Positions 3,418-27,735 of a stretch of 64,000 nucleotides of DNA are shown one piece after another. This stretch comes from a virus. The translations under genes were made by a program, and so were the position numbers. The stretch lies in IMG/VR virus record IMGVR_UViG_3300028898_000109, positions 1 through 64,000 of that record; one strand, 5' to 3'. Positions within the stretch are counted from its first letter, which is position 1. Every line of letters begins with the position of its first letter. The notes under the pieces are model-generated. The model saw only the letters and a list, made by a program, of their open reading frames with translations, did no database searches and was not told the origin of the DNA.

Positions 3418-4179
3418 ATGTTCAATATATTAACTGGTAGAGACTCAGAAAAAAAGACTTTTGTTAAATCTGACGTTTGCATCGCTTATCAAACACTAGA
3501 AGGTAAAAAAGAATCTTACACTAGTGGGGTTAAAGGTACTGATACTTATAAGCAAGTTCTTGCCTTTGCTAATCATCAATATAAAGACATTGATATTAGT
3601 TGGCTACCAGCAGCTGCTGAAACTTATCAGATCTCCGCTGATATTAGAGATTACGTTATTACTGACGTACCCGCCGTAACCGTGGATATACCCAACCGCA
3701 ACTTGCAAGCATTCCCTTTCGAGGAGATCTCATACTTCGATAGACAGTTTGGTAAAATGATCTACAAAACTTTTATTGGTAAGCCTAGTTGTAAAGATCA
3801 TGATAATGATACTGACGAAAATCCTGACAGAGCTAAGGGTGTAATTTTTCATTCATCTTTGCAGTACATTCCTGAATATGGCATTTATAAAATTCGTTTA
3901 CTACAAGGGTGGGACAGGACCAAAGACGAAAAACTATGCCATGATATTTTATCAGGTAAAAGACCCTACTATTCTATGGGGGCTCTGGCTTCTAGTTTTC
4001 TCTGCCCTATTTGTGGTCAAATTAAAAACTCACAAAGACCTTGCCCTTGTTCTGCACAAGGTAATGGTTCTGAGTATATGGGACACCTACAATATTCCCT
4101 TTGCATCGGCGTAAATTTTATTGAAAATTCAAACGTAGAGGAACCCGCTGATTTTGCCGCCGAAGGTAAAATAATGTAA
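3418..4179 (+). CDS. candidate prohead maturation protease (S78 / HK97 gp4-like layout)
   Basis: CKDH, then AKGVIF, then DRTKDEKLCHDILSGKRPYYSMGA resembles the His ... Ser-x-Gly layout of S78 prohead proteases; AGGAG RBS; sits in head module; C-terminal CPICG/CPC cysteine cluster is extra. Confidence 0.35.
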   Translation: MFNILTGRDSEKKTFVKSDVCIAYQTLEGKKESYTSGVKGTDTYKQVLAFANHQYKDIDISWLPAAAETYQISADIRDYVITDVPAVTVDIPNRNLQAFPFEEISYFDRQFGKMIYKTFIGKPSCKDHDNDTDENPDRAKGVIFHSSLQYIPEYGIYKIRLLQGWDRTKDEKLCHDILSGKRPYYSMGALASSFLCPICGQIKNSQRPCPCSAQGNGSEYMGHLQYSLCIGVNFIENSNVEEPADFAAEGKIM

Positions 4180-4625
4180 TGGATCTATCTAAACTAAAAA
4201 TAGGACAATCCTTACTATTAGCTGCTAAATTGCCTAGCGTTAGCAAAGCAAAAGCCTTGTCGTCCAAGCTAGCTAAGGCTGCGCAGGAAGTTTATGACGA
4301 TTGGTCGCAGGATGAAAAAGGCTACGATTCCGAAGTAGGTTATGGCGGAATTTGCCATTTAATAGTTGATAAGATGCTACCTATTTTAGACAAAGCAGGC
4401 ATAGAGTGTTCATCGGTAAGCTCTAGTCATGAGCAACATGTGTATATTGCTGCTAAGTTTTCCGAAGGTGTTTTTACCATTGACGTTCCTCATAGTATCT
4501 ATGAAAAAGGTGGTGGTTTTACTTGGAAGAAAATACCTGGTATTAAATTTGATTCCAGTGACATTGTTTTTCGTAAAGTAGACTCTGATCCTGAGTCCTT
4601 TGAAAGCTATATTGAGCCTTACTAA
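4179..4625 (+). CDS. leader-tagged protein LT1 (MDLSKLKIGQSLLL...)
   Basis: 148-codon ORF, TAATG overlap with candidate protease gene; N-terminal shared tag; rest unrecognised. Confidence 0.6.
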   Translation: MDLSKLKIGQSLLLAAKLPSVSKAKALSSKLAKAAQEVYDDWSQDEKGYDSEVGYGGICHLIVDKMLPILDKAGIECSSVSSSHEQHVYIAAKFSEGVFTIDVPHSIYEKGGGFTWKKIPGIKFDSSDIVFRKVDSDPESFESYIEPY

Positions 4626-5040
4626 CATTAATGTAAATATACTTATACGCTTATTCTAAAGGGTGCAATTCGTATGGAAAAGATACAAAAACAAGAAATT
4701 TTAGACTTGGAATATATTTATTTATTCTCCTTATATTCCTTTGGTAGTGACTAATCATAAGTTAGGCGGCTTACGATATTACTTTTGTAGATTTAATGTT
4801 AAAATAAAGTACTTTATCTACAAAAAATTTAATATCTGGTTATTCGATTTTTCAAAAGAAGATGCGTAAGTGTGGCCTGTAATCATAGAAGACGTAGAAG
4901 ATTAAAACCTTATGGTATGAGAGCAGGCAAGAGCTGGTGTATTTCATGTGATAGATTTTTCGGTCCAGACCATGTAGACATATCACCTAAGAGAGAACGG
5001 CAAAAAGGAAAAAGAGATTCTATAGAGCTAAGGATGTACT

Positions 5041-5706
5041 ATGAATATTATCGGTGACATTGGCGGGCAGTTTGATAGCCTGCTTCGTTTAGTAGAAAAA
5101 ATGCCCAAAGATGAGATTTTACTAGTTGGTGATTTAATGGATAGAGGTCCTAAATCTCGACAGGTTATAGAATGGGCAATTGCAAATAACATCAAAGCTC
5201 TTCGTGGTAATCATGAAGATATGATGATAGATTTTTATAAAAATGGAATTAGCTACCGGGCTAAATACTCCAATGGACCTGGCGACCACGCTTGGCTGTA
5301 CAATGGTGGAAAACAAACACTTGAGTCCTATGATGCCATTGTTATGGGGAAAATAAAAAGAGAAAAAATCCCAAAAGAACATATTGACTGGCTAGAGTCT
5401 TTACCCTTGTACTATGAGACCTATGATTTTGTTGTCACTCATGGATCTATCAATGGGGACCTGTTTGACTGGAAAATTGCGTTGAATGATGACGGTCTAT
5501 ACGAGCATGGCAATCACATATTATGGAGCAGACAATTCCCTAGTCGTAGGTCTAAACTTCAATTATTTGGGCATAATGCTCATTGGGGTTCAAAAGAATT
5601 TACGGATGAAAGAGGCGTCTACGCAATATGTTTAGACAATAGTAAGTCCAAAGTTTTAACAGGCATAAGCCTTCCTTCACAACAAATATATCAAGAAGCA
5701 TTCTAG
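5041..5706 (+). CDS. PPP-family (lambda phosphatase / ApaH-like) metallophosphatase
   Basis: GDIGGQ, GDLMDRG and GNHE motifs in canonical order and spacing; first motif has Gly where GDxHG His is expected. Confidence 0.8.
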   Translation: MNIIGDIGGQFDSLLRLVEKMPKDEILLVGDLMDRGPKSRQVIEWAIANNIKALRGNHEDMMIDFYKNGISYRAKYSNGPGDHAWLYNGGKQTLESYDAIVMGKIKREKIPKEHIDWLESLPLYYETYDFVVTHGSINGDLFDWKIALNDDGLYEHGNHILWSRQFPSRRSKLQLFGHNAHWGSKEFTDERGVYAICLDNSKSKVLTGISLPSQQIYQEAF

Positions 5707-5717
5707 GAGTAAGTATT

Positions 5718-6197
5718 ATGAGACCCAATATACTAATGGTAAAATCAAGCCTTTCTGTGTGTCTGGTTACTTTTGTAGGTCTTTTTACTATAGATGGTGA
5801 GCAGTACAGCTTAGAAGAAATCAAGAAAAAATGGCCAGACGGAGTAGTAGTTAAAGGTGATTTAAACTTGTCAGGATTAGGTCTAACCAAACTTCCTTTT
5901 AAAATTAAAAGTGTTGGAGGAAATTTTTATTGCTGTAATAATAACATGGCATCCTTACAAGACGGACCAGAAGAGGTCGGCGGGGATTTCAACTGTTTTG
6001 AGTCTAACTTACTCTCCTTAGAGGGAGCACCCAAGTCAGTCGGTGGAAGCTTTATATGCTCCTACAATAACTTAACCTCGCTCAAATGGGCACCGCAAAA
6101 GGTTGGTTATTATTTTAATTGTTCAGAAAACAAAAAGAAATTCACCGAAAAAGAAGTTAGAGCTGTATGCGAAGTCAGCACTCACATATTCGTTTAA
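5718..6197 (+). CDS. LRR-like ~22-residue repeat protein with hydrophobic N-terminus
   Basis: repeats of form SL.G.P..VGG.F.C..N.LT; N-terminus SSLSVCLVTFVGLF; paralog of 6502..7110. Confidence 0.65.
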   Translation: MRPNILMVKSSLSVCLVTFVGLFTIDGEQYSLEEIKKKWPDGVVVKGDLNLSGLGLTKLPFKIKSVGGNFYCCNNNMASLQDGPEEVGGDFNCFESNLLSLEGAPKSVGGSFICSYNNLTSLKWAPQKVGYYFNCSENKKKFTEKEVRAVCEVSTHIFV

Positions 6198-6218: not shown

Positions 6219-6515
6219 ATGAATTTAAGTAACCTAAAGATAGGCCAAACTAAATTAATAGGAAAGACTGACTCTAACTTTGACTCGGTTTATATATCTC
6301 CGTCCCAGACAAAAATGATGGCTAAGCCAAGCAAAGGTAGAGACTACTTTTCTTGTGAGATTTGCGATAAGAATATTTCTACCTCGTATGTACTGGATCA
6401 TCTAAAAACACACACCAAAGAAGAAATAGAAAAGCATGACTACGATCTTATATTTAGACCTAAATTACCAAATGACTTATTCTTTAAAGTGAAAAAATTC
6501 TATGAATCTCTCTAA
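6219..6515 (+). CDS. leader-tagged protein LT2 with C2H2-like zinc finger
   Basis: MNLSNLKIGQT tag; FSCEICDKNISTSYVLDHLKTH (CxxC ... HxxxH). Confidence 0.6.
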   Translation: MNLSNLKIGQTKLIGKTDSNFDSVYISPSQTKMMAKPSKGRDYFSCEICDKNISTSYVLDHLKTHTKEEIEKHDYDLIFRPKLPNDLFFKVKKFYESL

Positions 6516-7110
6516 TCTTAAAGTAGGCCAAACTTTTCTTGTTAAGACTCCCAGTTATAAGTCTACGTTAGAAACCGCCAATACAAACAAACCACCTGTC
6601 TTTAAGCTAGATGGAAAAGTCTATACATTGAATGAAATTAAAGATAAATGGCCTAATGGAGTAGAAGTTAAAGGAGATCTTGACTTAGCAGACCTAGGAT
6701 TAGGTAGCCTACCTTTCAAAATTAAAAGTATAGGTGGTGATTTCTACTGTATGAGAAACAAGTTAACTTCTTTGAATGGTGGTCCCGATTTTGTAGGTGG
6801 GGATTTTTATCTTTTTAACAATAATCTGACTTCCCTTTCAGGATCTCCTAAAATTGTTAAAGGATCTTTTTTATGTTCTGATAATAAGCTAACTTCCCTA
6901 AAAGGTGGGCCTAAGGAAGTAGGTGGAGATTTTGGATGTTTCAAAAATAACCTAACTTCTTTAGAGGGAGCACCTCAAAAAGTTGGAGGAAATTTTTATT
7001 GTCATACTAACAAGAAAAATTTCACAGTACTCGAAGTAAAATCTGCCTGCAAAGTTAAAGGTAGAATAATAGTTAAATCTAATTCGGGAATGAAACATGA
7101 ATCTCTCTAA
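6502..7110 (+). CDS. leader-tagged protein LT3, LRR-like repeats
   Basis: MNLSNLKVGQT tag; five to six repeats LTSL.G.P..VGGDF.C..N; 14-nt overlap with upstream gene. Confidence 0.7.
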   Translation: MNLSNLKVGQTFLVKTPSYKSTLETANTNKPPVFKLDGKVYTLNEIKDKWPNGVEVKGDLDLADLGLGSLPFKIKSIGGDFYCMRNKLTSLNGGPDFVGGDFYLFNNNLTSLSGSPKIVKGSFLCSDNKLTSLKGGPKEVGGDFGCFKNNLTSLEGAPQKVGGNFYCHTNKKNFTVLEVKSACKVKGRIIVKSNSGMKHESL

Positions 7111-7723
7111 CCTTAAATTAGGTCATAGCATTATAGCACTTCCTTTGCTATATCATGGATCACCAAAGAGAGGGATTAAAAAATTCGATATGTCTATTAG
7201 GAGATTTGATAGTCCTACTGAGGGAGCAGGAATCTACCTAACTACCTCCTATAAAATGGCTCGTGACTATGCTGGCTCTAGTGGTTCAATATATGTTTGT
7301 TCCCTTAAGTCCGGTAATATTTTTGATGCAACAACTAAGTCTGGTACTTCTTGGATAATGGAAACAATTTCATCTGTATTTAAGGAACACAAAATTTCTT
7401 TAGATAAAATCTCTAAAAATCACTTAGTGGACGAAGTATCTGATATAATTTCCGGTAGAGGATCGGCCACTAATGCCTTTGCAAATGTAAGAAATATCCT
7501 TCTTAATGAGGAATCCTTTGTTACACTGGAAAATTATGAAGAGATACTGGATTCTATACAAACAGATTTTGATCTATACTATGAAAAACACCCAATTGTA
7601 AAATATAAGGATAAATCCCTCGACAACGGGAAGGCTACTATTTATGTTGTCAAGGATCCTAATGTTGTTCATATAGAAAATGAGATAGTTGTAGGATCTG
7701 AAGACGAAATTAAATTTTTGTAA
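7097..7723 (+). CDS. leader-tagged protein LT4, possible ADP-ribosyltransferase fold (PARP / polyvalent-protein ART-like)
   Basis: MNLSNLKLGHS tag; LYHGS (res 18-22) then GAGIYLTTSYKMARDY (res 43-58), reminiscent of H-Y-E class ART motifs; possible catalytic Glu in IENEIVV near the C-terminus. Confidence 0.45.
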   Translation: MNLSNLKLGHSIIALPLLYHGSPKRGIKKFDMSIRRFDSPTEGAGIYLTTSYKMARDYAGSSGSIYVCSLKSGNIFDATTKSGTSWIMETISSVFKEHKISLDKISKNHLVDEVSDIISGRGSATNAFANVRNILLNEESFVTLENYEEILDSIQTDFDLYYEKHPIVKYKDKSLDNGKATIYVVKDPNVVHIENEIVVGSEDEIKFL

Positions 7724-11969: not shown

Positions 11970-12160
11970 TTTTATAACACGCTGCATTATACTCTCAAAT
12001 AGCATGACGCTCTATGCAAAATATATATTATATATGCATTATTTTGCGTATTAGTTCGCTCGAAAGCTGACGGCGATACCGTGGAAGCGAAGAACAGCCT
12101 ATTGTTGAAAAGATTGGTTCGCTTCATTAATAGTATTAATTATTGCTAAGGACGTTTGTA

Positions 12161-14822: not shown

Positions 14823-15509
14823 ATGTATAATCGTGAAAAAACCTATTCAGATTTCCCTCTTACTAAAGATGTGAAGGCAGCTACTTCCATCTCTCAAGAG
14901 GGTTTACTGTTAATTCAAGAGCTTGTTTCTGGTAAAGAAGTTGTACTTCCTGCTAGTGGCTTAGGTTCTGAAAAAATTGCTGGATTTTCTAGCATGACTT
15001 TTTTGACTCCTAGTCAAGAAGTTATCATTAAATCTTTCGTAGTTCCTGCAACTTCCCCTTACACCATTGATGTAGGCCAAACTGGTTTAGTTTCTGGTCA
15101 AGCTTTCATCCCTGGTTTGACTTTGGGTGTTGCTTCTAACGCAGGTGAATTTAGTTTCACTGGCGCAGGCGTATTTACCTTTAACGTAGCTCAAGCTGGT
15201 ACTACTGTTGAAATTCACTATAAACGTGATTTGACTGTAGCTGAAGCTAAGCAAAAATATTTCGAAGGTCATATCAACAACATTAACGCTTCTGCTGCGT
15301 TTAAACAAGTTGGTTTGTTGGCTGGTAAAGGTATTATCTATACTGACCAATACGATGTTTCTAAGGACTACTCAACTGGTACTTTGAAAACTCTTGCTGG
15401 CGGTTTGATTACCATTGGTGGATCTGGAACTGACTTGTCAGCTCTTATGAAAGTGATTGAAACTCCAAGTATCGGGCAGCCGTACCTCGGGTTGGAATTT
15501 AATATCTAG
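14823..15509 (+). CDS. capsid-associated protein (candidate decoration or minor head protein)
   Basis: 228-codon Gly/Thr/Ala-rich ORF between scaffold-like and major capsid genes; GAGGAG RBS; codon choice like the capsid gene. Confidence 0.4.
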   Translation: MYNREKTYSDFPLTKDVKAATSISQEGLLLIQELVSGKEVVLPASGLGSEKIAGFSSMTFLTPSQEVIIKSFVVPATSPYTIDVGQTGLVSGQAFIPGLTLGVASNAGEFSFTGAGVFTFNVAQAGTTVEIHYKRDLTVAEAKQKYFEGHINNINASAAFKQVGLLAGKGIIYTDQYDVSKDYSTGTLKTLAGGLITIGGSGTDLSALMKVIETPSIGQPYLGLEFNI

Positions 15510-18805: not shown

Positions 18806-19069
18806 ATGGCCAAGAAGTCAGTGACTAAACGTAGTAATCGTAAAAAAGTTTCTGGAAAATCAAAAGCTATTTCTAAGACATTATCACATAAAGAGCTATT
18901 ACTCTGCTCTACTAATTATTCCCCTAAAATCCGTTGTTGCCTTAAGTGTGCAAAGGATTTTAAATCACCACAAAAAGATATAAGATTGTGTTCTCCTTGT
19001 CGTTACGAAAATGAGAATGAATTTTATTTAGAACCGCACATTACACATTCCACATTGGTACGACCATGA
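18806..19069 (+). CDS. basic Cys4 zinc-ribbon protein
   Basis: Lys/Arg-rich N-terminus; CCLKC ... CSPC. Confidence 0.5.
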   Translation: MAKKSVTKRSNRKKVSGKSKAISKTLSHKELLLCSTNYSPKIRCCLKCAKDFKSPQKDIRLCSPCRYENENEFYLEPHITHSTLVRP

Positions 19070-19455
19070 CACTAAAAAACTTAAAAATTGGCGAGAGTAT
19101 CACCGTATTAGCAAATACCAAAGAAGTAGTTACTGCTGATACAGTTGGGTACTTTGGTAAATTTTTAGCTAATAAAACTAACTTACTATTGTTAAAGAAT
19201 GATGTGTTATTCGATAGCTCAAACTTGGGTCCAATATTTCGAGTGCAATTAAAAGGTAATTGTTATTACGAAATTATTATTTGTGTTAAGACCTACCCTA
19301 AAGTGTCTGCCACAATAACATTGATTTACGCTAATACTCCTCCTACTAAAACAGAGGAAAGATCTGGCGTAGCATATACAAATATGAGCAGTCTAGTTAA
19401 AGGTATTATACAGATTGAGATGGGTAAATACCCAGAAGCAAATAAGGCAGCGTAA
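19066..19455 (+). CDS. leader-tagged protein LT5 (MTLKNLKIGESITV...)
   Basis: ATGA overlap with upstream gene; variant of the shared tag (E for Q). Confidence 0.6.
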   Translation: MTLKNLKIGESITVLANTKEVVTADTVGYFGKFLANKTNLLLLKNDVLFDSSNLGPIFRVQLKGNCYYEIIICVKTYPKVSATITLIYANTPPTKTEERSGVAYTNMSSLVKGIIQIEMGKYPEANKAA

Positions 19456-19456: not shown

Positions 19457-20080
19457 ATGAATCTAAGAAACTTAAAAATAGGTCAGTCTTTAGTTGTTAA
19501 AGCTAAAGTGCAGGACTACGCTAAACTCCTAAAAAACAATATTGAAAAATCCTTAACCAGTGCCTTTGTAACAGAACATAACAGTGGTGCAGGAGGTTAT
19601 GCCTACAAAGCTATTTTTACTTTTAACTTTCCTGTTGAACTAGTACCTAATAAAAAAGATATTGGGGAATTAGTCGTAGATGTTAATAATTTTTTATCTC
19701 GCAAAGGTTTTGAAGAAGCCTATAATCCATCTGTTGATATTGCTAAAAAATCCAAAAATAGTAAACTGGAAATAAAATTCACTTACTATTTTAGCAATCC
19801 TTTTCATGCTTATGCCTATGGGAGAGATCTAACTAGTTTTAGTGGGTTCAATGAAATTGATTTTCCTAAAATTAAATCAAGGTTGGACTATGCCAAAAAG
19901 ACAGTAAAAGAATTACAAAATAAACGAGAAGAAGCAATAAAGGCTCTAGAAAAAGATCACCCTACAGCCTCTAAAGAAGAGTCAAATAAGTTATGGAAAG
20001 AAAACTACGGAAAAGAATGGTTAAAATTAAATGAGATCGCCAAAGGTAAAGGTTTAGCTGGTTATAAATTTAGAAATTAA
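19457..20080 (+). CDS. leader-tagged protein LT6 (MNLRNLKIGQSLVV...)
   Basis: track frame 19415..20080 trimmed to the ATG one nt after the upstream stop; shared tag. Confidence 0.6.
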   Translation: MNLRNLKIGQSLVVKAKVQDYAKLLKNNIEKSLTSAFVTEHNSGAGGYAYKAIFTFNFPVELVPNKKDIGELVVDVNNFLSRKGFEEAYNPSVDIAKKSKNSKLEIKFTYYFSNPFHAYAYGRDLTSFSGFNEIDFPKIKSRLDYAKKTVKELQNKREEAIKALEKDHPTASKEESNKLWKENYGKEWLKLNEIAKGKGLAGYKFRN

Positions 20081-20094: not shown

Positions 20095-20352
20095 ATGAAA
20101 AAGTTAATCGCAAAATTGAATGAGAAAAAAATATTCCACGTTGTTTCCGCTGAAGGTGACAAAGTTGAAGTTTTGACTATGCCTGCTGACTTGGCTGACA
20201 AAGATAAGCAAATGCTGAAAGACTACTACGGCTTGGCTGATTACTCAGTACCTAAAGCACAGAAAAATCCTTTCATCAACAAAGCTTCTACTTTGTTTAG
20301 CAATAAACCAGATGGAGATCCTTTCCGTAAGGCTGCTCCTAAGGCTAAATAA
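20095..20352 (+). CDS. hypothetical protein
   Basis: 85-codon ORF, AGGAG RBS. Confidence 0.55.
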   Translation: MKKLIAKLNEKKIFHVVSAEGDKVEVLTMPADLADKDKQMLKDYYGLADYSVPKAQKNPFINKASTLFSNKPDGDPFRKAAPKAK

Positions 20353-20468
20353 GGAATTTAAAAAATGAATTTAAGCAAACTAAAATTGGGCCAGACAATC
20401 TACATCCAAAAGGAATTTAAAAAATGAATTTAAGCAAACTAAAATTGGGCCAGACAATCTACATCCAA
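20351..20468 (+). repeat. perfect 59-bp tandem direct duplication (20351..20409 and 20410..20468) covering RBS plus leader codons
   Basis: AAGGAATTTAAAAAATGAATTTAAGCAAACTAAAATTGGGCCAGACAATCTACATCCAA occurs twice back to back. Confidence 0.95.
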
Positions 20469-21131
20469 GCGGATGCTAAAAAGAGATTTGAAACCTACAA
20501 GAAACTTCACCCAGCTACTAAAAAAACAGTGCAAGATTTTGAGTCCGAGGAGCCAAGTAATGAAAGAAGATCTCCAGAAAAAGTAAAAGAAGACTCAGCC
20601 AAAGTTCAGAAGGATTATAATGATTTTGAGGCAAAAATGATTGATAAATATTCTAAATTGGCAAGGAAACCAGGACAACCGAAAATAGATAATATCACGG
20701 ATGTCCTCGATCACATGTCTCCTCAAGAGAAAGCTAAAATAAAGGAATTGAGAAAACCTGTTTCAGTGCATGAGGGTAGACACAGAGCAAAACAGGTAGA
20801 AAAAGTAAAAAAGCAAACTCCCGTAGCGGAAAGTCACCCAAAAGTTAAAGAGGCAGGTGAGAAAATTGCGAAAAGCCCGGAGTTTAAAAATGAAATTAAA
20901 AAGTTTATGAAGGATGACATACTCATGAAAGAGTGGAAAGGACAACCTTCTGACTCAGATTTTCTGCAATTGGCAAAAGATCTTACTGAAAAACAAAAAG
21001 ATCTAGATGTTCTTGACTTTTCAGATTCAAACAATCTTAAGCATGAAGCAGTTCGTACTGCTCTTGTTAAGCCTGCCGTTAAATACCTGAAAGATAATTG
21101 GAAAGCAATCCAAGACGGTACGTTGAAATAA
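20424..21131 (+). CDS. leader-tagged protein LT7, Lys-rich (paralogous to LT11 over YKKLHPATKKT)
   Basis: MNLSKLKLGQTIYI tag; starts in the second copy of the 59-bp repeat. Confidence 0.6.
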   Translation: MNLSKLKLGQTIYIQADAKKRFETYKKLHPATKKTVQDFESEEPSNERRSPEKVKEDSAKVQKDYNDFEAKMIDKYSKLARKPGQPKIDNITDVLDHMSPQEKAKIKELRKPVSVHEGRHRAKQVEKVKKQTPVAESHPKVKEAGEKIAKSPEFKNEIKKFMKDDILMKEWKGQPSDSDFLQLAKDLTEKQKDLDVLDFSDSNNLKHEAVRTALVKPAVKYLKDNWKAIQDGTLK

Positions 21132-21181: not shown

Positions 21182-21748
21182 ATGAATCTAAGCAAACTAA
21201 AAGTGGGCCAGACTATCACTCTTGGTAAGACTGGCAGGGGTGGTCCTTCGTTCGACGACGAGCCTAATGGAAATGTTAAGTTATTTTCTGCCTTGGTATT
21301 AGCAGATCCTTGCCTCTCTTACATAGCAAAAGATCCTATCCCAAACTGTCCATCTTCCATGGCTAGCTCACAAAATATTAAACTATTTGGTGCGAAGTAC
21401 ATAAAGCCTCTTGAAAACGCATTGGCTAAAGTAGCTAAAGCTTACGCTAAAAAGTTAGAAACGGAAGATACTCCAGCTCCTGATATAAAAGAAATTGTAT
21501 CCGCAGCAATAAGCTACTCCTGCGAATCTTCAAATTTTCATGCATACAGTGAATGGAACAATGTATACTGGGTCTCCTTCCTGAATGGCGAACTCTTTTC
21601 TCCAAGGAATTTAGATTTTGATTTCGCCAAAAAAGATCCTGAAGTAAAAGCTTGTATTGCGGCAACAAAAAAGGCAATCGCAGCATTATTAGTAAGTATG
21701 ACACCAATCGCAAATAAAGACCCTATCAAAGATTACGACGACAGATAA
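21182..21748 (+). CDS. leader-tagged protein LT8 (MNLSKLKVGQTITL...)
   Basis: shared tag; AAGGAAAG RBS. Confidence 0.6.
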   Translation: MNLSKLKVGQTITLGKTGRGGPSFDDEPNGNVKLFSALVLADPCLSYIAKDPIPNCPSSMASSQNIKLFGAKYIKPLENALAKVAKAYAKKLETEDTPAPDIKEIVSAAISYSCESSNFHAYSEWNNVYWVSFLNGELFSPRNLDFDFAKKDPEVKACIAATKKAIAALLVSMTPIANKDPIKDYDDR

Positions 21749-21774: not shown

Positions 21775-22476
21775 ATGCGCATTCTAGCATTCGACATGGG
21801 ATTACGTTCAACCGCTTGGGCTATAACCGAAGCAGGAGCACTGGTTGAATGCGGAATGATGCAAAATCCTATTTCAGAGCTTACCGAGCAATTTAATAGA
21901 CAAAAAAGAAAGTTTATTAGAGAATGTAAAGTTCTGTTTAGTAAGCTATCAGAAGACTCAGTTGTCCTAGCTGAGAGATTTCAAATGAGACAATTTAACA
22001 GTGGTAAGCAGATTGAGTGCGTATCAATTATGCTTGGCTTGATAGCCGCTACATCCCCTGTTAAAACTTATTTGATTATACCTGCTGAATGGAAAAATAG
22101 TTATCTCCGTAACTACAGTGAAAATGTTATGGAGGTAATACTCAGGGACGATTTCAATGAGCATGAATGCGATGCAATTGGATTGTCCCTTTGGTATTAT
22201 GAGCAGAAGCTAGGTGAGAAAAGTGCTTGGCTTGCTGGTTATTTCCCTATAGAAAAAAGCTGTAAGAGATGTTGGTATAGATACAATGGTTGTAAGGGTG
22301 TGAAAGAGAAAATCTGCCCTTCTTTCCTTGAGATTAATAAGCAATCAAAATGCGCTAAATGTAAGTATATAGAGCCTTGCAAAAAAGAAATAGAAAAAGA
22401 ATATGGTAAAGGTCAAGTTAAAAAATTTAAAAGAACAACTCATGGCTGTTCTGAATTTAAGGAAATTAAAAAATGA
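21775..22476 (+). CDS. RuvC-like Holliday junction resolvase with C-terminal Cys-rich extension
   Basis: MRILAFDMGLRSTAWAI N-terminus and ..HECDAIGL.. are typical of RuvC-fold resolvases; C-terminus has CKRC..CKG..CPS..CAKC..C. Confidence 0.55.
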   Translation: MRILAFDMGLRSTAWAITEAGALVECGMMQNPISELTEQFNRQKRKFIRECKVLFSKLSEDSVVLAERFQMRQFNSGKQIECVSIMLGLIAATSPVKTYLIIPAEWKNSYLRNYSENVMEVILRDDFNEHECDAIGLSLWYYEQKLGEKSAWLAGYFPIEKSCKRCWYRYNGCKGVKEKICPSFLEINKQSKCAKCKYIEPCKKEIEKEYGKGQVKKFKRTTHGCSEFKEIKK

Positions 22477-22862
22477 AACTAAGTAACTTAAAACTAGGCC
22501 AGAGCCTATTGATAAAAGCAGCATCAGACGCCAAATGGGGTTTTGACCTTACTAATATTAAAGCCGATGACTGGAAAAAGATTTTAGATTTTATTGGTTT
22601 TAATTATCATACTGAAAAACCTAAATTTGGCTCGCATTCTTTAGCGTGGATTTGGCAAGGTAAAACCATAAAAATTCATACAGACAATGATCCTATCTCT
22701 GGTAAGTACTCTACTGGAAAAAGAAAACCTGAAAAAGACTATGCCTCTTACATCGGTATCTATGGCAAAGATAAAAAAGAAGTGGCTAAAGTAGCCAAAA
22801 TGATTAGAGACTTGGCTATAAGTATTAAAGACGAAACACCAAATGAAAGTAGGTTTATCTAG
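22473..22862 (+). CDS. leader-tagged protein LT9 (MKLSNLKLGQSLLI...)
   Basis: ATGA overlap with upstream stop; shared tag. Confidence 0.6.
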   Translation: MKLSNLKLGQSLLIKAASDAKWGFDLTNIKADDWKKILDFIGFNYHTEKPKFGSHSLAWIWQGKTIKIHTDNDPISGKYSTGKRKPEKDYASYIGIYGKDKKEVAKVAKMIRDLAISIKDETPNESRFI

Positions 22863-22863
22863 T

Positions 22864-23373
22864 ATGAAACTAAGCAATTTAAAACTTGGGCAGACAATAA
22901 CTGTAAAATCAAACATAGCTTATGACGAATACTTCCAAGAAAAGCTAGCTAAGTACGGCGTTAAATCTCCTGCTGAATTATCTGAATCTGACAAGAAAAA
23001 GTTCTTCGAAGATGTCGATAAGGAATGGAAATCCAAAGAGGAGTCTAAGGAAGTAAAAGCTAATATCCCTGATAATAAATGGGGTCAATTTCTTTCTTTG
23101 GGTACTGGCCTTACAGTAGAAGAAGGATCTAGCACATCAATACTTTATTATACACCAACACCGGGTATGGAATACAATGCTACTTTAATAGGTGTTAGAA
23201 CTGACAATCTTTACGCAATTCAGTTGAGGGTAGACTTACACCCTAAAGTAAAATCAATTCTTTCTTTAGGTATATACGACTCAAATAATCCTAAAAAAGT
23301 ACCTGTAGTTACGGACTACACTTTAAAAGGCATTAAGGCTTTAATTGCTGACATTAAAAAACTCGAAAGTTAA
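22864..23373 (+). CDS. leader-tagged protein LT10 (MKLSNLKLGQTITV...)
   Basis: track frame 22843..23373 trimmed to the ATG just after the upstream stop; shared tag. Confidence 0.6.
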   Translation: MKLSNLKLGQTITVKSNIAYDEYFQEKLAKYGVKSPAELSESDKKKFFEDVDKEWKSKEESKEVKANIPDNKWGQFLSLGTGLTVEEGSSTSILYYTPTPGMEYNATLIGVRTDNLYAIQLRVDLHPKVKSILSLGIYDSNNPKKVPVVTDYTLKGIKALIADIKKLES

Positions 23374-25727: not shown

Positions 25728-26384
25728 ATGAATTTAAAATCTTTGAAACTAGGTCAATCACTATTCATTCAGGCTATTACTTTTGAAAAGTATAAAAAAT
25801 TACACCCTGCTACTAAAAAAACTAGCAATGATCCAATGTTTACAGGTAAGGAAGGTAAGGAAGGTAAAACATCTAAGGCACCCAAGAGTACAAAGGAACA
25901 GGAACGGGTAAAAGAAATTAAGGAATTAGAGGATACTCTAAATAAGAACATAACATCCATAAATGCCCTTCACATCAAAAAAAAGAAACTGATGGACGCA
26001 GAGCCAGAGGAACACTACAGTAAGATAGATCACAATAATATAGCGGAGATGGATTCACAAATAAAACAATTGGATGACGATATTGCTAAGGGATTTGGTA
26101 AAGGAGATGATTCACCTTATATTATCAGATACTACTTACAGTCTAAAAAAATTAAAAATCTTATATCCCAAGGTGAAAGTTCCCCCACAAATATGTGGGC
26201 GGATAAAGTGCCTAGCCTTAAAGAAAGCTTAGACAAGATCCCAGAAGTGTCGGAGAAAGACTTAAAAGAAGCTTCAAAAAAGCTACAATTGAGCAAATTG
26301 GACCATGAGATTTCTAAACTTTCTAATGCTATAACGTCAGACCGCTTTAAACTTCAGAAGTATAACGTGGGTAGTTTAAAATAA
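25728..26384 (+). CDS. leader-tagged protein LT11, Lys/Glu-rich
   Basis: MNLKSLKLGQSLFI tag; YKKLHPATKKT shared with LT7. Confidence 0.6.
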   Translation: MNLKSLKLGQSLFIQAITFEKYKKLHPATKKTSNDPMFTGKEGKEGKTSKAPKSTKEQERVKEIKELEDTLNKNITSINALHIKKKKLMDAEPEEHYSKIDHNNIAEMDSQIKQLDDDIAKGFGKGDDSPYIIRYYLQSKKIKNLISQGESSPTNMWADKVPSLKESLDKIPEVSEKDLKEASKKLQLSKLDHEISKLSNAITSDRFKLQKYNVGSLK

Positions 26385-26399: not shown

Positions 26400-26723
26400 A
26401 TGAATTTAAAATCTTTGAAACTAGGACAGTCAATTGTTGTTAGGGCACTTGCAAATAGATCCAACTACAAAGCTGGACCTGCAAGAGATCATTATAGTAG
26501 CTTAACTTTTACTATTGGAGACTCATTAGTGGAGATGGTTTTTAACGGCAGACAATGGGCGGAAGGTCGTGTACTAGAAGGTGACAAACCCGCTAACTGG
26601 GGTAGTAAAAAATATCAAAGCTACTTATCTGTTAAGGACATTTTATACTGGCTTTCTAAAGATTACGACGACGTAACATTCGAGAGTGCGGAAGATAACG
26701 GTCAAGAAGATGAGGAAGACTAG
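26400..26723 (+). CDS. leader-tagged protein LT12 (MNLKSLKLGQSIVV...)
   Basis: shared tag; the 29 nt around the start are identical to those of LT11. Confidence 0.6.
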   Translation: MNLKSLKLGQSIVVRALANRSNYKAGPARDHYSSLTFTIGDSLVEMVFNGRQWAEGRVLEGDKPANWGSKKYQSYLSVKDILYWLSKDYDDVTFESAEDNGQEDEED

Positions 26724-26758
26724 GCGTAGCGTTCCATAAAGGATATTAGGAGGAAGAC

Positions 26759-27211
26759 GTGAATATAAAAACTTTGAAGCTAGGTCAGTCTTTACTACTA
26801 CGAGCAAAGAAACTACCAGCTATAAGAGTGGGTACTCACGACGGTGTTATCAAAATAAATATGCCTGGCTATGGAAGTGCGGAAGGTTATATTTCCGATA
26901 CTGGATCTTTAGAATACTGGTTTGACGTATATCCTTTAAAACTAGAAGATTTGCCCAGCGAAGTAGCGATCTTGGAGCATATAAAAGTTAATGAAGGAAA
27001 GAAAAATGAGGGTGCCGGATCTAAAATTCTACAAGCCTTTTTGGCTAAAGTCAAATCTCAAGTAGATGCTGTATTTGTTAATGCTAGCCCAATGCATGAA
27101 AACTTATCTTTTTCAGCCTTAAAAAATTTCTATATCAAAAATGGTTTTAAGGTAGTTCCTAAGTGTGAGTTTAGTGACAATGCTTTAATGGTAAAATATT
27201 TCAACAAGTAG
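26759..27211 (+). CDS. leader-tagged protein LT13, GNAT-type acetyltransferase
   Basis: GTG start after AGGAGGAAG; tag NIKTLKLGQSLLL; motif A IKVNEGKKNEGAGSKILQAF and motif B LKNFYIKNGFKV. Confidence 0.55.
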   Translation: MNIKTLKLGQSLLLRAKKLPAIRVGTHDGVIKINMPGYGSAEGYISDTGSLEYWFDVYPLKLEDLPSEVAILEHIKVNEGKKNEGAGSKILQAFLAKVKSQVDAVFVNASPMHENLSFSALKNFYIKNGFKVVPKCEFSDNALMVKYFNK

Positions 27212-27220
27212 AAAGTGAAT

Positions 27221-27529
27221 ATGTTCTCTTTAAAAACTCTAAAGCTAGGTCAATCTGTTTTGCTAATGGCAAAGTACAACCAAATAATGAAACTTTCCTA
27301 TGGAGGTGGCTATATTTGTTACATATTTTTTGATGATAGCAAAGATGTAGCTAAAGCCATCTTCACTGGTCCGGGAAATTTCAAAGCAGGAGAATTTAAG
27401 CTTAATAATTCTCAGTCAGTTCGTTGGTACCCAACTATTTTCCAAGAGTTTAAAGACATACTTGAACAAGTTGGATTTAAGACTACGATTGATAGCCGCG
27501 ATATAAAAGTAGAGGACTTAAGAAAATGA
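27221..27529 (+). CDS. leader-tagged protein LT14 (MFSLKTLKLGQSVLL...)
   Basis: shared tag displaced by 2-4 residues; alternative GTG start at 27215. Confidence 0.55.
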   Translation: MFSLKTLKLGQSVLLMAKYNQIMKLSYGGGYICYIFFDDSKDVAKAIFTGPGNFKAGEFKLNNSQSVRWYPTIFQEFKDILEQVGFKTTIDSRDIKVEDLRK

Positions 27530-27735
27530 AACTATCAAACTTAAAATTGGGAGAAACTGTTATAATCTCTGTTCTGAGAAAGTGTGCTGAGGATGACACG
27601 AAACCAGGGAGAGCCTGGTGCGTATACAAGGAAGGACATCCTGCTGATAAACAGCCTAAGGGTTGGCCTAAGACTTATGAGACTAAAGAAGATGCTGCTC
27701 ACGGCATAAAAATGATGAAGACATTCGGAAAATAA
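27526..27735 (+). CDS. leader-tagged protein LT15 (MKLSNLKLGETVII...)
   Basis: ATGA overlap with upstream stop; 69 aa. Confidence 0.55.
   Translation: MKLSNLKLGETVIISVLRKCAEDDTKPGRAWCVYKEGHPADKQPKGWPKTYETKEDAAHGIKMMKTFGK

What the first reader, a model, noticed from the sequence alone, without database searches (positions are those of the whole stretch)
4179..27735. Fifteen otherwise unrelated genes begin with the same 11-14 residue peptide: a candidate address tag on a diversifying effector repertoire
Seen: 15 + strand genes start with M-[NK]-L-[SK]-[NKS]-L-K-[LIV]-G-Q-[ST]-[ILV]-x-[ILV]. The starts are 4179 MDLSKLKIGQSLLL, 6219 MNLSNLKIGQTKLI, 6502 MNLSNLKVGQTFLV, 7097 MNLSNLKLGHSIIA, 19066 MTLKNLKIGESITV, 19457 MNLRNLKIGQSLVV, 20424 MNLSKLKLGQTIYI, 21182 MNLSKLKVGQTITL, 22473 MKLSNLKLGQSLLI, 22864 MKLSNLKLGQTITV, 25728 MNLKSLKLGQSLFI, 26400 MNLKSLKLGQSIVV, 26759 (GTG) MNIKTLKLGQSLLL, 27221 MFSLKTLKLGQSVLL and 27526 MKLSNLKLGETVII. 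Past about residue 17 the proteins (69-235 aa) look mutually unrelated, apart from one pair (LT7 and LT11) that also share YKKLHPATKKT. They include LRR-like repeats, GNAT motifs, a C2H2-like finger, a PARP-like HGS/GIY motif and Lys-rich proteins. Codon choice differs between clusters (AAT CTC TCT, AAT TTA AGC, AAA CTA AGT), so the conservation is at peptide level. All copies sit in three clusters on the head-morphogenesis side. The first is translationally coupled (TAATG) to a candidate prohead protease gene. Established: T4 internal proteins and Alt carry a short N-terminal capsid-targeting sequence. It is removed by the prohead protease, and the proteins are injected with the DNA. Encapsulins (HK97-fold shells) load cargo through short terminal peptides. 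Inference: this is a peptide address that loads a large, fast-evolving set of effectors into the capsid or delivers them to one shared receptor. The tagged set is far larger than the T4 precedent. I do not recognise this tag from any described family.
Basis: partly seen in the sequence, partly recalled or inferred. Interest (0 to 1): 0.92.

Follow-up and report, generated by a model that had tools for sequence, protein, structure and literature searches.

The report
Shared N-terminal tag on phage proteins
A jumbo phage puts the same roughly 14-residue peptide at the start of at least 27 otherwise unrelated small proteins (15 in this window), most likely as a removable address label that loads them into the capsid for injection, like phage T4's capsid targeting sequence but with a new sequence and a much larger cargo set.

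Summary
All 15 + strand genes start with M-x-L-x-x-L-K-[LIV]-G-[QEH]-[ST] followed by three hydrophobic residues. A loose six-frame pattern gives 18 hits against 0.25 expected. Synonymous codons are scrambled: Gly uses all four codons and 59% of identical-residue pairs use different codons. Conservation is therefore at peptide level.

It also could not see 12 more tagged genes of the same phage just upstream of the window. A second phage, with 50% capsid identity, has at least 13 tags at syntenic positions with different cargo. Other relatives and GenBank phages have none.

Without the tag the proteins are unrelated. Recognisable cargo includes an ADP-ribosyltransferase, a ferritin-like protein and an Acb1-like phosphoesterase.

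The adjacent protease has the T4 gp21 fold. gp21 cuts after L/I-X-E at residues 8-10 of T4's 10-residue targeting sequence. Here residues 8-10 are [LIV]-G-[Q/E].

Best reading (about 0.55): a T4-like capsid-targeting propeptide, which is a new variant of a known kind. Packaging and cleavage are inferred, not shown.

The parts
4179..4625 (+). T1, tagged gene (MDLSKLKIGQSLLL), 148 aa. Its start overlaps the protease stop codon (TAATG).
   Evidence: 26.6 bits to the tag HMM
6219..6515 (+). T2, tagged gene (MNLSNLKIGQTKLI), 98 aa, with a weak C2H2-like finger.
   Evidence: PF18508, E 0.006, below cutoff
6502..7110 (+). T3, tagged gene (MNLSNLKVGQTFLV), 202 aa repeat protein. Its paralogue 5718..6197 lacks the tag.
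   Evidence: 50% identity over 172 aa to 5718..6197
7097..7723 (+). T4, tagged gene (MNLSNLKLGHSIIA), 208 aa ADP-ribosyltransferase. The domain starts at residue 18, directly after the tag.
   Evidence: PF18760 ART-PolyVal, 4.2e-8, above cutoff
19066..19455 (+). T5, tagged gene (MTLKNLKIGESITV), 129 aa. Glu at tag residue 10.
19457..20080 (+). T6, tagged gene (MNLRNLKIGQSLVV), 207 aa. Its orthologue in the second phage keeps a diverged tag (MKKWARLNIGESIVAKSE).
   Evidence: 29% identity, E 6e-19
20351..20468 (+). Perfect 59-bp tandem duplication (20351-20409 and 20410-20468) of the ribosome-binding site plus the first 15 codons of T7. The first copy leaves a 20-aa mini-ORF from 20365.
20424..21131 (+). 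T7, tagged gene (MNLSKLKLGQTIYI), 235 aa, Lys-rich. Carries a second motif, YKKLHPATKKT.
21182..21748 (+). T8, tagged gene (MNLSKLKVGQTITL), 188 aa.
22473..22862 (+). T9, tagged gene (MKLSNLKLGQSLLI), 129 aa.
22864..23373 (+). T10, tagged gene (MKLSNLKLGQTITV), 169 aa.
   Evidence: phrog_28651, unknown function
25728..26384 (+). T11, tagged gene (MNLKSLKLGQSLFI), 218 aa. Shares YKKLHPATKKT with T7.
26400..26723 (+). T12, tagged gene (MNLKSLKLGQSIVV), 107 aa.
26759..27211 (+). T13, tagged gene (GTG start; NIKTLKLGQSLLL), 150 aa, weak GNAT acetyltransferase hits.
   Evidence: PF14542, 2.2e-4, below cutoff
27221..27529 (+). T14, tagged gene (MFSLKTLKLGQSVLL), 102 aa. Alternative GTG start at 27215.
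27526..27735 (+). T15, tagged gene (MKLSNLKLGETVII), 69 aa. Glu at tag residue 10.
3361..3405 (+). C-terminal tag-like copy (SSLRLGQTVIIGKRN, then stop) at the end of ORF 2638..3408, a DUF5661 protein whose remainder I read by eye as coiled-coil-like. This gene lies just upstream of the protease.
   Evidence: PF18905, 5.8e-12; 8.1 bits
30494..30532 (+). Internal tag copy (SLSNLRLGETLSL, residues 144-156) in ORF 30065..31147. It lies between an N-terminal 'NPNPDG' domain and a SAM methyltransferase domain that starts at residue 157.
   Evidence: (phrog_27380, 1.5e-11, residues 157-288)
3418..4179 (+). Head maturation protease with the T4 gp21 fold. H128 and S186 are invariant. It is the presumed enzyme that removes the tag.
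   Evidence: phrog_18299, 4.4e-49; pLDDT 90; 5JBL, probability 1.00, E 2.4e-4
12003..12034 (+). 32-nt promoter-like element CATGACGCTCTATGCAAAATATATATTATATA upstream of the operon encoding the acidic protein and the major capsid protein. Identical copies precede the out-of-window tag cluster and a tail/baseplate gene on L004, a contig from the same sample that is probably the same phage.
12143..14797 (+). Acidic 884-aa protein with five helix-plus-hairpin repeats; a scaffold candidate. It has a tag-like LKKVIGE|SDII near its C-terminus, at a position conserved in the second phage (LKLAIGE|ANIQ).
15569..16684 (+). Major capsid protein, 371 aa, about 30% identical to jumbo Erwinia and Vibrio phages. 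Candidate N-terminal site at LASTGE|SVKN.

Best explanation
The tag is most likely a capsid-targeting propeptide of the T4 kind.

**Proposed mechanism**
1. Tagged genes are expressed together with the head genes.
2. The N-terminal part of the tag (invariant L3, L6, K7) docks the protein onto the assembling prohead core.
3. Once the shell has closed, the gp21-fold prohead protease (3418..4179) cuts after residue 10, within [LIV]8-G9-[Q/E]10 | [S/T]11.
4. The mature proteins stay among the packaged DNA and are injected with it into the next host.

**Likely cargo.** The proteins are small and mostly basic. They include an ADP-ribosyltransferase, a GNAT-like protein, a ferritin-like protein, an Acb1-like 2H phosphoesterase and a methyltransferase.

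**Copies in other positions.** Internal and C-terminal copies would work as processing or docking sites in two-domain proteins.

**Evolution of the set.** Because any ORF that acquires the tag becomes cargo, the repertoire turns over quickly by local duplication and recombination at the tag.

**Shown:** the peptide-level signal, its modularity, its conservation in a second phage, the protease fold, and the positional match to the T4 motif.
**Inferred:** docking, cleavage, packaging and injection.
For: **A selected peptide signal, not a DNA repeat**
- 18 hits against 0.25 expected.
- All four Gly codons and both Ser codon families are used.
- 59% of same-residue codon pairs differ.

**Modular**
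- Tag-trimmed proteins are unrelated.
- The T3 paralogue 5718..6197 lacks the tag.
- The ADP-ribosyltransferase domain starts at residue 18.
- The 'NPNPDG' domain starts the methyltransferase protein untagged in the window. In the second phage it has a tag in front of it.

**Conserved across divergence**
- The Ga0070717 phage (L043, L022) has at least 13 tags at syntenic sites, with capsid identity of 50%.
- The T6 orthologue is only 29% identical yet keeps L-x-I-G-E-S-I-V.

**Protease**
- phrog_18299 head maturation protease, E 4.4e-49.
- AlphaFold model at pLDDT 90.
- Its only significant PDB match is T4 gp21, 5JBL, probability 1.00.

**Match to T4**
- gp21 cuts after L/I-X-E.
- The targeting sequence is 10-19 aa, and the first 10 aa of IPIII suffice.
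- In T4, residues 4 and 7 matter for targeting and residues 8 and 10 for processing (PMC9026906).
- The T4 sequence is MKTYQEFIAE (PMC8442874).
- Here residue 8 is L/I/V and residue 10 is Q/E/H, with Q and E interchanging between copies and between phages.
- Invariant residues lie at positions 3, 6 and 7.

**Position independence**
- The tag also works after a 10-aa leader, internally and at a C-terminus.
- This fits an endoprotease or docking site. It does not fit a signal that needs a free N-terminus.

**Context**
- All copies lie in head, neck or tail modules, and none lies in the 30-kb replication arm.
- One tag cluster shares an identical 32-nt upstream element with the capsid operon.

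**Cargo profile**
- It resembles T4 Alt and the internal proteins: ART-PolyVal, median 144 aa, 18 of 27 basic.
- In the window, 73% of tagged proteins are basic against 40% of untagged (p = 0.04).
- An Acb1-like phosphoesterase and a ferritin-like protein are among the cargo.

**Precedent**
- T-even internal proteins share only a conserved targeting sequence (PMC3012670).
Against: - There is no direct evidence of packaging or cleavage.
- P1 is Gln in 11 of 15 window copies and His in one. Every characterised gp21-type protease (T4, phiKZ, SPN3US) cuts after Glu. In T4, Asp at residue 10 blocks processing.
- Gly9 is invariant, and residues 11-16 ([ST], three hydrophobic residues, often K-A) are conserved. 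A minimal L/I-X-E site does not need either, so the motif may act as a larger unit, for example a beta-hairpin.
- The protease's own C-terminus (FAAE|G) and the capsid N-terminus (TGE|S) look more like small-X-E sites than L-G-Q.
- Five protease relatives at 45-57% identity with long flanks (L069-L072, L074) and two at 56-58% on short contigs (L082, L083) show no tag near the protease, so tag and protease do not strictly co-occur. Two more (L073, L075) have only degenerate look-alikes.
- No homologue of the T4 scaffold gp22 was identified as a receptor.
Confidence: 0.55

Rival explanations
1. The tag is a virion-loading or docking peptide that is not removed, or that binds something other than a T4-like core. 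Candidates are the inner face of the HK97-fold shell (as in encapsulins), the portal or neck, or the tail lumen. The Q/E residue would then be a contact rather than a cleavage site.
For: - The conserved stretch runs to about residue 16 and has an invariant Gly, more than a cleavage motif needs.
- It resembles the strand-turn-strand that opens Big_2 Ig-like domains (SAQLKVGESIVLEATV) and FeoA.
- P1 is mostly Gln, which is unlike known gp21-type sites.
- One cluster lies next to the head-tail connector. Two tagged genes lie among baseplate genes.
- A ferritin-like cargo with a weak EncFtn hit recalls encapsulins.
Against: - The spacing of residues 8-10 exactly matches T4's processing positions.
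- The Q/E/H interchange is typical of a P1 pocket.
- The first tagged gene is translationally coupled to the protease gene.
- The encapsulin consensus SDGSLGIGSLKRS is C-terminal and is not matched.
Confidence: 0.2
2. The tag is a recognition signal for a process unrelated to the virion. Options include timed degradation by a host or phage protease, binding to a chaperone or inhibitor that keeps toxic enzymes silent in the producer cell, or sorting to another intracellular compartment.
For: - It is a short linear motif on many unrelated proteins, several of them potentially toxic enzymes (ADP-ribosyltransferase, phosphoesterase).
- No direct virion evidence exists.
Against: - The tag also functions internally and at a C-terminus, so it is not an N-degron.
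- All copies sit in structural modules, and none sits among the 58 - strand genes of the replication arm.
- The tag genes are adjacent to the protease and share a promoter-like element with the capsid operon.
- The phages whose capsid proteins match best (Erwinia Yoloswag group, NCTB, GR11A) are not, to my knowledge, nucleus-forming phages.
Confidence: 0.1
3. The tag is an ordinary structural element: the first beta-hairpin of a common small fold. The 15 proteins would then be a highly diverged domain family with no sorting role.
For: - The motif looks like the opening strands of Big_2, FeoA or KOW-type barrels.
- Hydrophobic residues follow the Gly.
Against: - There is no similarity beyond about residue 16 in any pair except T7/T11.
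- No Pfam Big_2, FeoA or KOW domain is found in any tagged protein.
- Cargo folds differ: ADP-ribosyltransferase, GNAT, ferritin four-helix bundle, 2H phosphoesterase.
- The Pfam domains begin after the tag (residue 18 in T4, about residue 30 in the ferritin-like protein).
- The T3 paralogue folds without the tag.
Confidence: 0.07
4. The repeat exists for nucleic-acid-level or gene-flux reasons, such as an optimal translation-initiation region or a recombination cassette that shuffles genes. The peptide itself would have no function.
For: - There is a perfect 59-bp tandem duplication of ribosome-binding site plus tag at 20351-20468.
- Identical 14-nt junctions (ATGAATCTCTCTAA) occur at T2/T3 and T3/T4.
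- Nucleotide identity is slightly higher within clusters than between them (0.68 against 0.59).
- T4-type phages use conserved cassettes for modular shuffling (PMC2839356 and PMC4122927, listed).
Against: - Synonymous sites are close to randomised while residues are kept.
- Ser switches between TCN and AGY.
- The tag is conserved in a phage with 46% GC against 36% here.
- Internal and C-terminal copies cannot be initiation regions.
- Recombination at the tag is better seen as a consequence of the tag than as its purpose.
Confidence: 0.05

Closest known systems
Phage T4 capsid targeting sequence on internal proteins IPI, IPII, IPIII and on Alt, removed by prohead protease gp21
   Same: - A short N-terminal peptide is shared by otherwise unrelated, mostly small and basic proteins.
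- It is 10 residues long up to the putative scissile bond.
- An aliphatic residue sits at position 8 and an acidic or amide residue at position 10.
- The phage encodes a gp21-fold protease.
- The cargo includes an ADP-ribosyltransferase.
- The cargo set is diverse and evolves fast.
   Different: - There is no sequence similarity to MKTYQEFIAE.
- P1 is mostly Gln rather than Glu.
- Gly is invariant at P2, and the P1'-P4' positions are conserved.
- At least 27 tagged genes are seen in one genome, against about 4 in T4.
- The tag also occurs internally and at a C-terminus.
- The host phage is a roughly 230-kb jumbo phage unrelated to T4 at sequence level.
- Packaging is untested.
Propeptides of phiKZ, 201phi2-1 and SPN3US head and ejection proteins, including the identical 15-aa N-termini of SPN3US gp53 and gp54
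   Same: - These are jumbo phages with gp21-like proteases.
- N-terminal propeptides are thought to target ejection proteins into the prohead.
- Paralogues have conserved N-termini (PMC5694885).
   Different: - Those propeptides are mostly longer than 100 residues.
- Their motif is S/A/G-X-E.
- The shared N-terminus is confined to paralogues rather than spread over unrelated proteins.
Encapsulin Family 1 targeting (cargo-loading) peptides
   Same: - A short terminal peptide loads diverse enzymes into an HK97-fold shell.
- Ferritin-like cargo is typical, and one tagged protein here is ferritin-like.
- N-terminal TVGSL-type peptides exist on some cargo.
   Different: - Encapsulin peptides are usually C-terminal.
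- Their consensus is SDGSLGIGSLKRS.
- They bind a pocket formed by an N-terminal helix of the shell protein and are not cleaved.
- Encapsulins have no portal, protease or DNA.
- This is an analogy, not membership.
Other packaged phage effectors: the P1 Dar system, MuF-fused polymorphic toxins, and polyvalent proteins carrying the ART-PolyVal domain
   Same: Enzymes that act on the next host are carried inside the capsid. The ART-PolyVal domain found in T4 comes from this group.
   Different: In those systems cargo is incorporated through dedicated partner proteins or by fusion into one large polypeptide, as I recall; these papers were not read here. Here many separate small genes each carry the same short tag.

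Membership tests
T4-type capsid targeting sequence system | A short (10-19 aa) N-terminal peptide shared by otherwise unrelated head-internal proteins | tested here: met
   15 in-window genes and 12 out-of-window genes share the tag. Tag-trimmed proteins are unrelated.
T4-type capsid targeting sequence system | The peptide ends in the cleavage motif of the cognate prohead protease (T4: L/I-X-E, residues 8-10) | tested here: inconclusive
   Residues 8-10 are [LIV]-G-[Q/E/H]. The position and the P3 residue match. P1 is Gln in 11 of 15 copies, Glu in 2 and His in 1. The specificity of this protease is unknown.
T4-type capsid targeting sequence system | The phage encodes a gp21-family (assemblin-fold) prohead protease | tested here: met
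   phrog_18299 at 4.4e-49. AlphaFold pLDDT 90. Foldseek top hit is 5JBL (T4 gp21), probability 1.00. No Pfam S77 hit.
T4-type capsid targeting sequence system | Sequence homology of the tag to MKTYQEFIAE | tested here: not met
   Direct comparison of the consensus MNLSNLKLGQ with MKTYQEFIAE: only the initial Met is shared.
T4-type capsid targeting sequence system | Cargo are small basic proteins or host-takeover enzymes such as an ADP-ribosyltransferase | tested here: met
   ART-PolyVal at 4.2e-8. Median 144 aa and 18 of 27 basic. In the window, 73% of tagged against 40% of untagged proteins are basic, p = 0.04.
T4-type capsid targeting sequence system | Cargo are present in virions with the tag removed, and the tag alone is enough to package a foreign protein | not testable with these tools
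   Needs virion proteomics and reporter fusions. The phage is uncultivated.
Encapsulin Family 1 targeting peptide | C-terminal peptide matching SDGSLGIGSLKRS | tested here: not met
   The tag is N-terminal in 27 genes. The consensus differs apart from an L-x-[IL]-G pattern.
Encapsulin Family 1 targeting peptide | Shell without portal, terminase or protease, and no DNA packaging | tested here: not met
   Portal (phrog_16240) and protease are present. A large gene carrying inteins (Pfam MJ0330_N, faint), which I take to be the terminase, and a head-tail connector are present in the same genome.
phiKZ/SPN3US-type propeptides | Long (over 100 aa) propeptides with S/A/G-X-E sites | tested here: not met
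   The tag is 10-16 aa. The motif is [LIV]-G-[Q/E].
Big_2 / FeoA / KOW-type small beta domains (ordinary domain family) | A full domain of about 60-80 aa alignable after the opening hairpin | tested here: not met
   Only the first about 14 residues resemble Big_2 repeats. No such Pfam domain is found in any tagged protein. No pairwise similarity remains after the tag.
Polyvalent proteins | A single very large polypeptide stringing many effector domains together | tested here: not met
   The ART-PolyVal domain occurs here in a 208-aa single-domain protein. The cargo are separate small genes.

The most novel reading that the evidence does not exclude
The tag may not be a T4-style propeptide that docks on a scaffold core. 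It may instead be a beta-hairpin cargo-loading peptide that binds directly to the inner face of the HK97-fold capsid, or to a dedicated receptor, by strand addition. A DNA phage would then be using an encapsulin-like loading mechanism for about 30 cargos, including a ferritin-like protein. That would be a mechanistic bridge between phage capsids and encapsulins.
Probability: 0.12. Interest if true: 0.85.

Novelty: new variant of a known kind. Interest (0 to 1): 0.68.

Why it matters
- **Size of the cargo set.** If the tag is a capsid address, it marks from sequence alone about 30 proteins that an uncultivated jumbo phage injects ahead of gene expression. As far as I know, no described phage has a peptide-tagged cargo set this large.
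- **Candidate early effectors.** The list is a ready-made catalogue of early host-takeover and anti-defence candidates. It includes an ADP-ribosyltransferase, an Acb1-like phosphoesterase, an acetyltransferase, a methyltransferase and a ferritin-like protein. Most of the rest are orphans with no homologue in 5.8 billion proteins.
- **Independent origin.** It would show that the T4 strategy of one tag with interchangeable cargo arose with an unrelated sequence in a distant lineage. The tag-bounded clusters keep their positions while their gene content is replaced.
- **Protease specificity.** It would widen the known specificity of gp21-type proteases to Gln at P1.
- **Engineering.** A 10-16 residue tag would be a new handle for loading foreign proteins into large capsids.

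Tried and rejected
- **Single-protein relative searches.** Scans of IMG/VR with the protease or capsid protein alone found nothing.
- **Metagenome and genome pattern scans.** Most hits were chance. Thirteen contigs of Ga0126335 (14 pattern-hit loci) turned out to be a non-coding repeat full of stop codons. Genome hits were unrelated single N-termini; one metagenome hit, L042, looked FeoA-like.
- **Second IMG/VR scan.** The Glu variant of the pattern gave only single chance hits.
- **Representative-protein search with the tag profile.** Outside this phage only P0140 carried the tag. The multi-hit large proteins were Big_2 repeat proteins.
- **tblastn of a 20-aa consensus against GenBank phages.** No match.
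- **Homologue searches for T4 (ADP-ribosyltransferase) and the methyltransferase protein.** Each returned only itself, so no alignments could be built.
- **AlphaFold of T4 from a single sequence.** pLDDT was 36.5 and the model was unusable, so it says nothing about the tag's conformation.
- **Idea that the tag copies the hairpin of the acidic protein's helix-hairpin repeats.** The best tag-matrix score in that protein was 6.2, below the shuffled mean of 7.0. Rejected.
- **Idea that the tag travels with the protease clade.**
  - Relatives at 45-58% protease identity (L069-L072, L074, L082, L083) have no tag near the protease.
  - Relatives at 35-49% capsid identity (L084-L089), NCTB and GR11A have no tag near the capsid gene.
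  - None of those scanned for it has another recurrent N-terminal peptide.
  - The look-alikes in L073 and L075 may be chance.
- **Independence of L012 and L004.** L012 is the same phage (100% identity), and L004 comes from the same sample with the same promoter-like element. Neither counts as independent.
- **Promoter and terminator scans.** Uninformative.
- **PDB sequence search with the protease.** Nothing found. Only the fold search identified gp21.

Full report
**1.

Aligned, they read M-[NKDT]-L-[SKR]-[NKST]-L-K-[LIV]-G-[QEH]-[ST] followed by three hydrophobic residues. L6, K7 and G9 are invariant and L3 is nearly so.

- **Chance.** A loose six-frame pattern, L[KR][LIVM]G[QEH][ST], has 18 matches, all on the + strand. 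The mean in 100 shuffles is 0.25, with a maximum of 2.
- **Real starts.** Most starts are preceded by a GGAG/AGGA-type ribosome-binding site.
- **Peptide-level conservation.**
  - The invariant Gly uses GGG/GGA/GGC/GGT at 2/4/7/5.
  - Leu uses five codons.
  - Ser uses both TCN and AGY.
  - Of codon pairs encoding the same residue, 59% are different codons.
- **Unrelated cargo.** With the first 16 residues removed, all-vs-all BLASTP finds only two relationships. One is the 17-residue YKKLHPATKKT stretch shared by T7 and T11. The other is the similarity of T3 to its untagged paralogue 5718..6197.

**2.

- **Three more copies in the window.**
  - The C-terminus of ORF 2638..3408 ends ...SSLRLGQTVIIGKRN (3361-3405). 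This protein has a DUF5661 domain, and I read the rest by eye as coiled-coil-like. Its gene lies directly upstream of the protease.
  - ORF 30065..31147 has an internal SLSNLRLGETLSL (30494-30532). It sits just before a methyltransferase domain that begins at residue 157.
  - A perfect 59-bp tandem duplication (20351-20409 and 20410-20468) covers the ribosome-binding site plus the first 15 codons of T7. It leaves a 20-aa mini-ORF.
- **A fourth cluster outside the window.**
  - The phage is a jumbo phage. The protease occurs 100% identical on a 231,559-bp contig.
  - A 55-kb contig, 100% identical to window 1-11557, shows a run of 12 further tagged genes. They lie about 9-16 kb upstream of the window start, on the opposite strand.
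  - The run sits between a 316-aa gene and the head-tail connector (phrog_17327).
  - One of these genes encodes a ferritin-like protein (PF00210, 3.4e-15; weak EncFtn-like hit).
- **A probable extra pair.**
  - L004 is an IMG/VR contig from the same sample.
  - It carries two more tagged genes among baseplate genes. One is a 2H phosphoesterase (2_5_RNA_ligase2, 5.9e-11; Acb1 anti-CBASS family, 8.8e-6, just below cutoff).
  - L004 shares a 32-nt element with this phage and is probably part of it.

The phage therefore has at least 27 N-terminally tagged genes, and probably at least 29.

**3. Context**

- **Head genes.**
  - Window 14..973 is the C-terminal part of the portal (phrog_16240).
  - 3418..4179 is a head maturation protease (phrog_18299, 4.4e-49).
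  - 14823..15509 is a virion structural protein.
  - 15569..16684 is the major capsid protein, about 30% identical to jumbo Erwinia (Yoloswag group), NCTB and Vibrio GR11A phages.
- **Protease fold.**
  - The protease model, built from a 50-sequence alignment, reaches pLDDT 90.
  - Its only significant PDB match is T4 gp21 (5JBL; probability 1.00, E 2.4e-4, target-normalised TM 0.65-0.67).
  - H128 and S186 are invariant in the family.
- **Strand bias.**
  - The - strand half of the window carries nucleic-acid metabolism genes (RtcB, RNA ligase, ThyX, UvrD helicase) and no tag.
  - 15 of 50 + strand genes are tagged against 0 of 58 - strand genes (p = 2.6e-6).
- **Shared promoter-like element.** CATGACGCTCTATGCAAAATATATATTATATA lies upstream of the operon with the acidic protein and the capsid protein (12003-12034). 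Identical copies precede the out-of-window tag cluster and a tail gene on L004.

**4. Comparative evidence**

- **Second phage.**
  - A degenerate DNA pattern scan of JGI metagenomes found two contigs of another phage, Ga0070717 (L043 and L022), at about 46% GC against 36% here.
  - Its capsid protein is 50% identical to the one in the window.
- **Synteny.**
  - L043 matches the window's region from the acidic protein to the tagged genes downstream of the capsid gene.
  - L022 matches the out-of-window cluster.
  - Together they carry at least 13 tags, for example MNLSNLKLGQSIAA, MDLKALKIGQSVVA, MNFKELKIGESVVA and MNLKEMKLGQTILA. One copy is internal and one is near a C-terminus.
- **Cargo turnover.**
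  - Cluster positions are conserved but the cargo genes are almost all different.
  - The one clear orthologue pair is T6 and L043 7123..7782. It is 29% identical overall yet keeps L-x-I-G-[QE]-S-[LI]-V.
  - The 'NPNPDG' domain begins the window's methyltransferase protein without a tag. In L022 it has a tag in front of it.
  - Glu replaces Gln at tag residue 10 more often in that phage.
- **Absence elsewhere.**
  - Protease relatives at 45-58% identity: L069-L072, L074, L082 and L083 have no tag near the protease.
  - Relatives at 35-49% capsid identity (L084-L089) have none near the capsid gene.
  - NCTB, GR11A and GenBank phages overall have none.
  - No other recurrent N-terminal peptide appears in the relatives scanned for it.
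  - Relevant calls: 35, 39, 64, 92, 95, 100, 109, 110, 113.
  - L073 and L075 have only degenerate look-alikes that may be chance.
  - One further tagged protein, P0140, comes from a third sample.

The tag is therefore a lineage-specific and rare invention.

**5. Mechanism**

The established model is phage T4 (PMC9026906; PMC8442874).

- Internal proteins and Alt carry 10-19-residue N-terminal capsid targeting sequences. The IPIII sequence is MKTYQEFIAE.
- These sequences bind the scaffolding core.
- gp21 then removes them by cutting after L/I-X-E.
- Residues 4 and 7 matter for targeting. Residues 8 and 10 matter for processing.

Here a gp21-fold protease is encoded next to, and translationally coupled with, the first tagged gene.

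- The tag is exactly 10 residues long up to [Q/E].
- Residue 8 is L/I/V.
- Residue 10 is Q/E/H.
- Residue 11 is S/T.
- The invariant residues L3, L6 and K7 lie in the part that carries the targeting function in T4.

Other observations fit the same reading.

- **Position independence.** The tag also occurs behind a 10-residue leader, internally between domains and at a C-terminus. This suits an endoprotease or docking site. It argues against signals that need a free N-terminus.
- **Cargo profile.**
  - The cargo resembles T4's. The proteins are small (median 144 aa) and mostly basic (18 of 27).
  - In the window, 73% of tagged proteins are basic against 40% of untagged (p = 0.04).
  - The set includes an ADP-ribosyltransferase, as T4 Alt is.

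My preferred reading is therefore a cleavable capsid-targeting propeptide that delivers an injected effector set.

**6. Caveats**

- Nothing here shows packaging or cleavage.
- All characterised gp21-type proteases cut after Glu, but 11 of the 15 window copies have Gln.
- The invariant Gly9 and the conserved residues 11-16 exceed what a minimal cleavage motif needs.
- The tag resembles the strand-turn-strand that opens Big_2 Ig-like repeats (SAQLKVGESIVLEATV) and FeoA. It may dock as a hairpin and might not be removed.
- Candidate sites in the capsid protein (LASTGE|S), the acidic protein (VIGE|S, position conserved in L043) and the protease C-terminus (FAAE|G) have Glu at P1.

| Statement | My probability |
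|---|---|
| The tag is a functional sorting or recognition peptide | about 0.9 |
| Its destination is the virion | about 0.65-0.75 |
| The full T4-like mechanism, including cleavage | about 0.55 |

**7. Relation to known systems and novelty**

- **Concept.** 'Diverse internal proteins with only a conserved targeting sequence' is textbook for T-even phages (PMC3012670). SPN3US gp53 and gp54 share identical 15-residue N-termini (PMC5694885).
- **What is new.**
  - The tag sequence has no similarity to T4's.
  - The likely P1 residue is Gln.
  - The scale is about 30 genes in one genome.
  - The tag is used internally and at a C-terminus.
  - The cargo types are new for such a system (ferritin-like, Acb1-like).
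- **Encapsulins.** Their targeting peptides (C-terminal, consensus SDGSLGIGSLKRS; PMC8346489) are an analogy only.
- **Classification.** I class this as a new variant of a known kind.
- **Interest.** It is fairly high, because the tag gives a sequence-only read-out of a large injected proteome in an uncultivated jumbo phage. It also makes clear predictions for proteomics and protease biochemistry.

Noticed in passing
window 20351-20468: A perfect 59-bp tandem duplication covers the ribosome-binding site and the first 15 codons of T7. The upstream copy makes a 20-aa mini-ORF (MNLSKLKLGQTIYIQKEFKK). It looks like a very recent recombination or slippage event at a tag.
   Followed up: yes
window 6502-6515 and 7097-7110: The T2/T3 and T3/T4 junctions use the same 14-nt overlap, ATGAATCTCTCTAA. 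Both upstream proteins therefore end in ...ESL. Only these two tags use the CTC TCT codons. This suggests that local duplication of a tag-plus-junction cassette built the cluster.
   Followed up: partly
window 12003-12034; also L076 1808-1847 and about 1895-1925, L004 about 8130-8162: A 32-nt element, CATGACGCTCTATGCAAAATATATATTATATA, occurs once in the window, upstream of the operon with the acidic protein and the capsid protein. Identical copies lie elsewhere in the same phage: in both orientations in the divergent intergenic region beside the 316-aa gene and tag cluster, and before a tail/baseplate gene. It is a likely late promoter.
   Followed up: partly
window 12143-14797: An 884-aa very acidic protein has five repeats of about 35-40 aa, each a helix plus a hairpin ending GF[IV]VKAE. 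Single-repeat proteins occur in the out-of-window cluster and in L022. It may be a scaffold. Its function is unknown, and its similarity to the tag was not significant.
   Followed up: partly
window 20424-21131 and 25728-26384; P0140: A second short motif, (E/T)YKK[LQ]HP[AG]TKK, lies directly after the tag in T7, T11 and a 62-aa protein from a third sample. Its meaning is unknown.
   Followed up: no
L078 10444-10944 (same phage, outside the window): A tagged ferritin-like/rubrerythrin protein has a weak EncFtn-like hit. Ferritin-like proteins are the classic cargo of encapsulins, which are HK97-fold shells.
   Followed up: partly
L004 3328-3966 (same sample, probably the same phage): A tagged 2H phosphoesterase scores just under the Pfam cutoff for the anti-CBASS nuclease Acb1. 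It is a candidate pre-packaged counter-defence enzyme.
   Followed up: partly
window 7753-8481: A 242-aa protein gives a weak match to a major head protein family (phrog_2522, 6.7e-5).
   Followed up: partly
window 29436-30056 and 31194-31754: The first gene has a sigma-70 region 2 hit (5.3e-6). I read the second as sigma-like from its sequence, but Pfam gave no sigma hit for it (only RXLR at 7.3e-4, below cutoff). The phage may bring its own transcription specificity factor(s).
   Followed up: partly
L076 2456-7216 and L078 13289-16081 (same phage, outside the window): A 1586-aa gene that I take to be the large terminase (only a faint MJ0330_N Pfam hit) and the head-tail connector gene both carry inteins with LAGLIDADG domains.
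   Followed up: no
window 44702-45007 and 45035-45313 (- strand): Two adjacent paralogous small genes (MKLESLITQIKKVDPDLSKWEI... and MKLGALITQVKKVDPNFNKWDI...) are similar along their whole length. They are ordinary paralogues and do not carry a tag.
   Followed up: no
P0121 and P0125 (representative-protein search): The tag profile hits the first strands of Big_2 Ig-like repeats (…SAQLKVGESIVLEATV…) many times in large surface proteins. This is a structural resemblance that may say something about the tag's conformation.
   Followed up: partly
L017, L023, L024 and other contigs of Ga0126335: Thirteen contigs of one metagenome (14 loci hit the pattern; 13 were inspected) matched the tag DNA pattern through a non-coding repeat (MKFQNLKVGQCDL... 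followed by stop codons). It is unrelated to the phage tag.
   Followed up: yes
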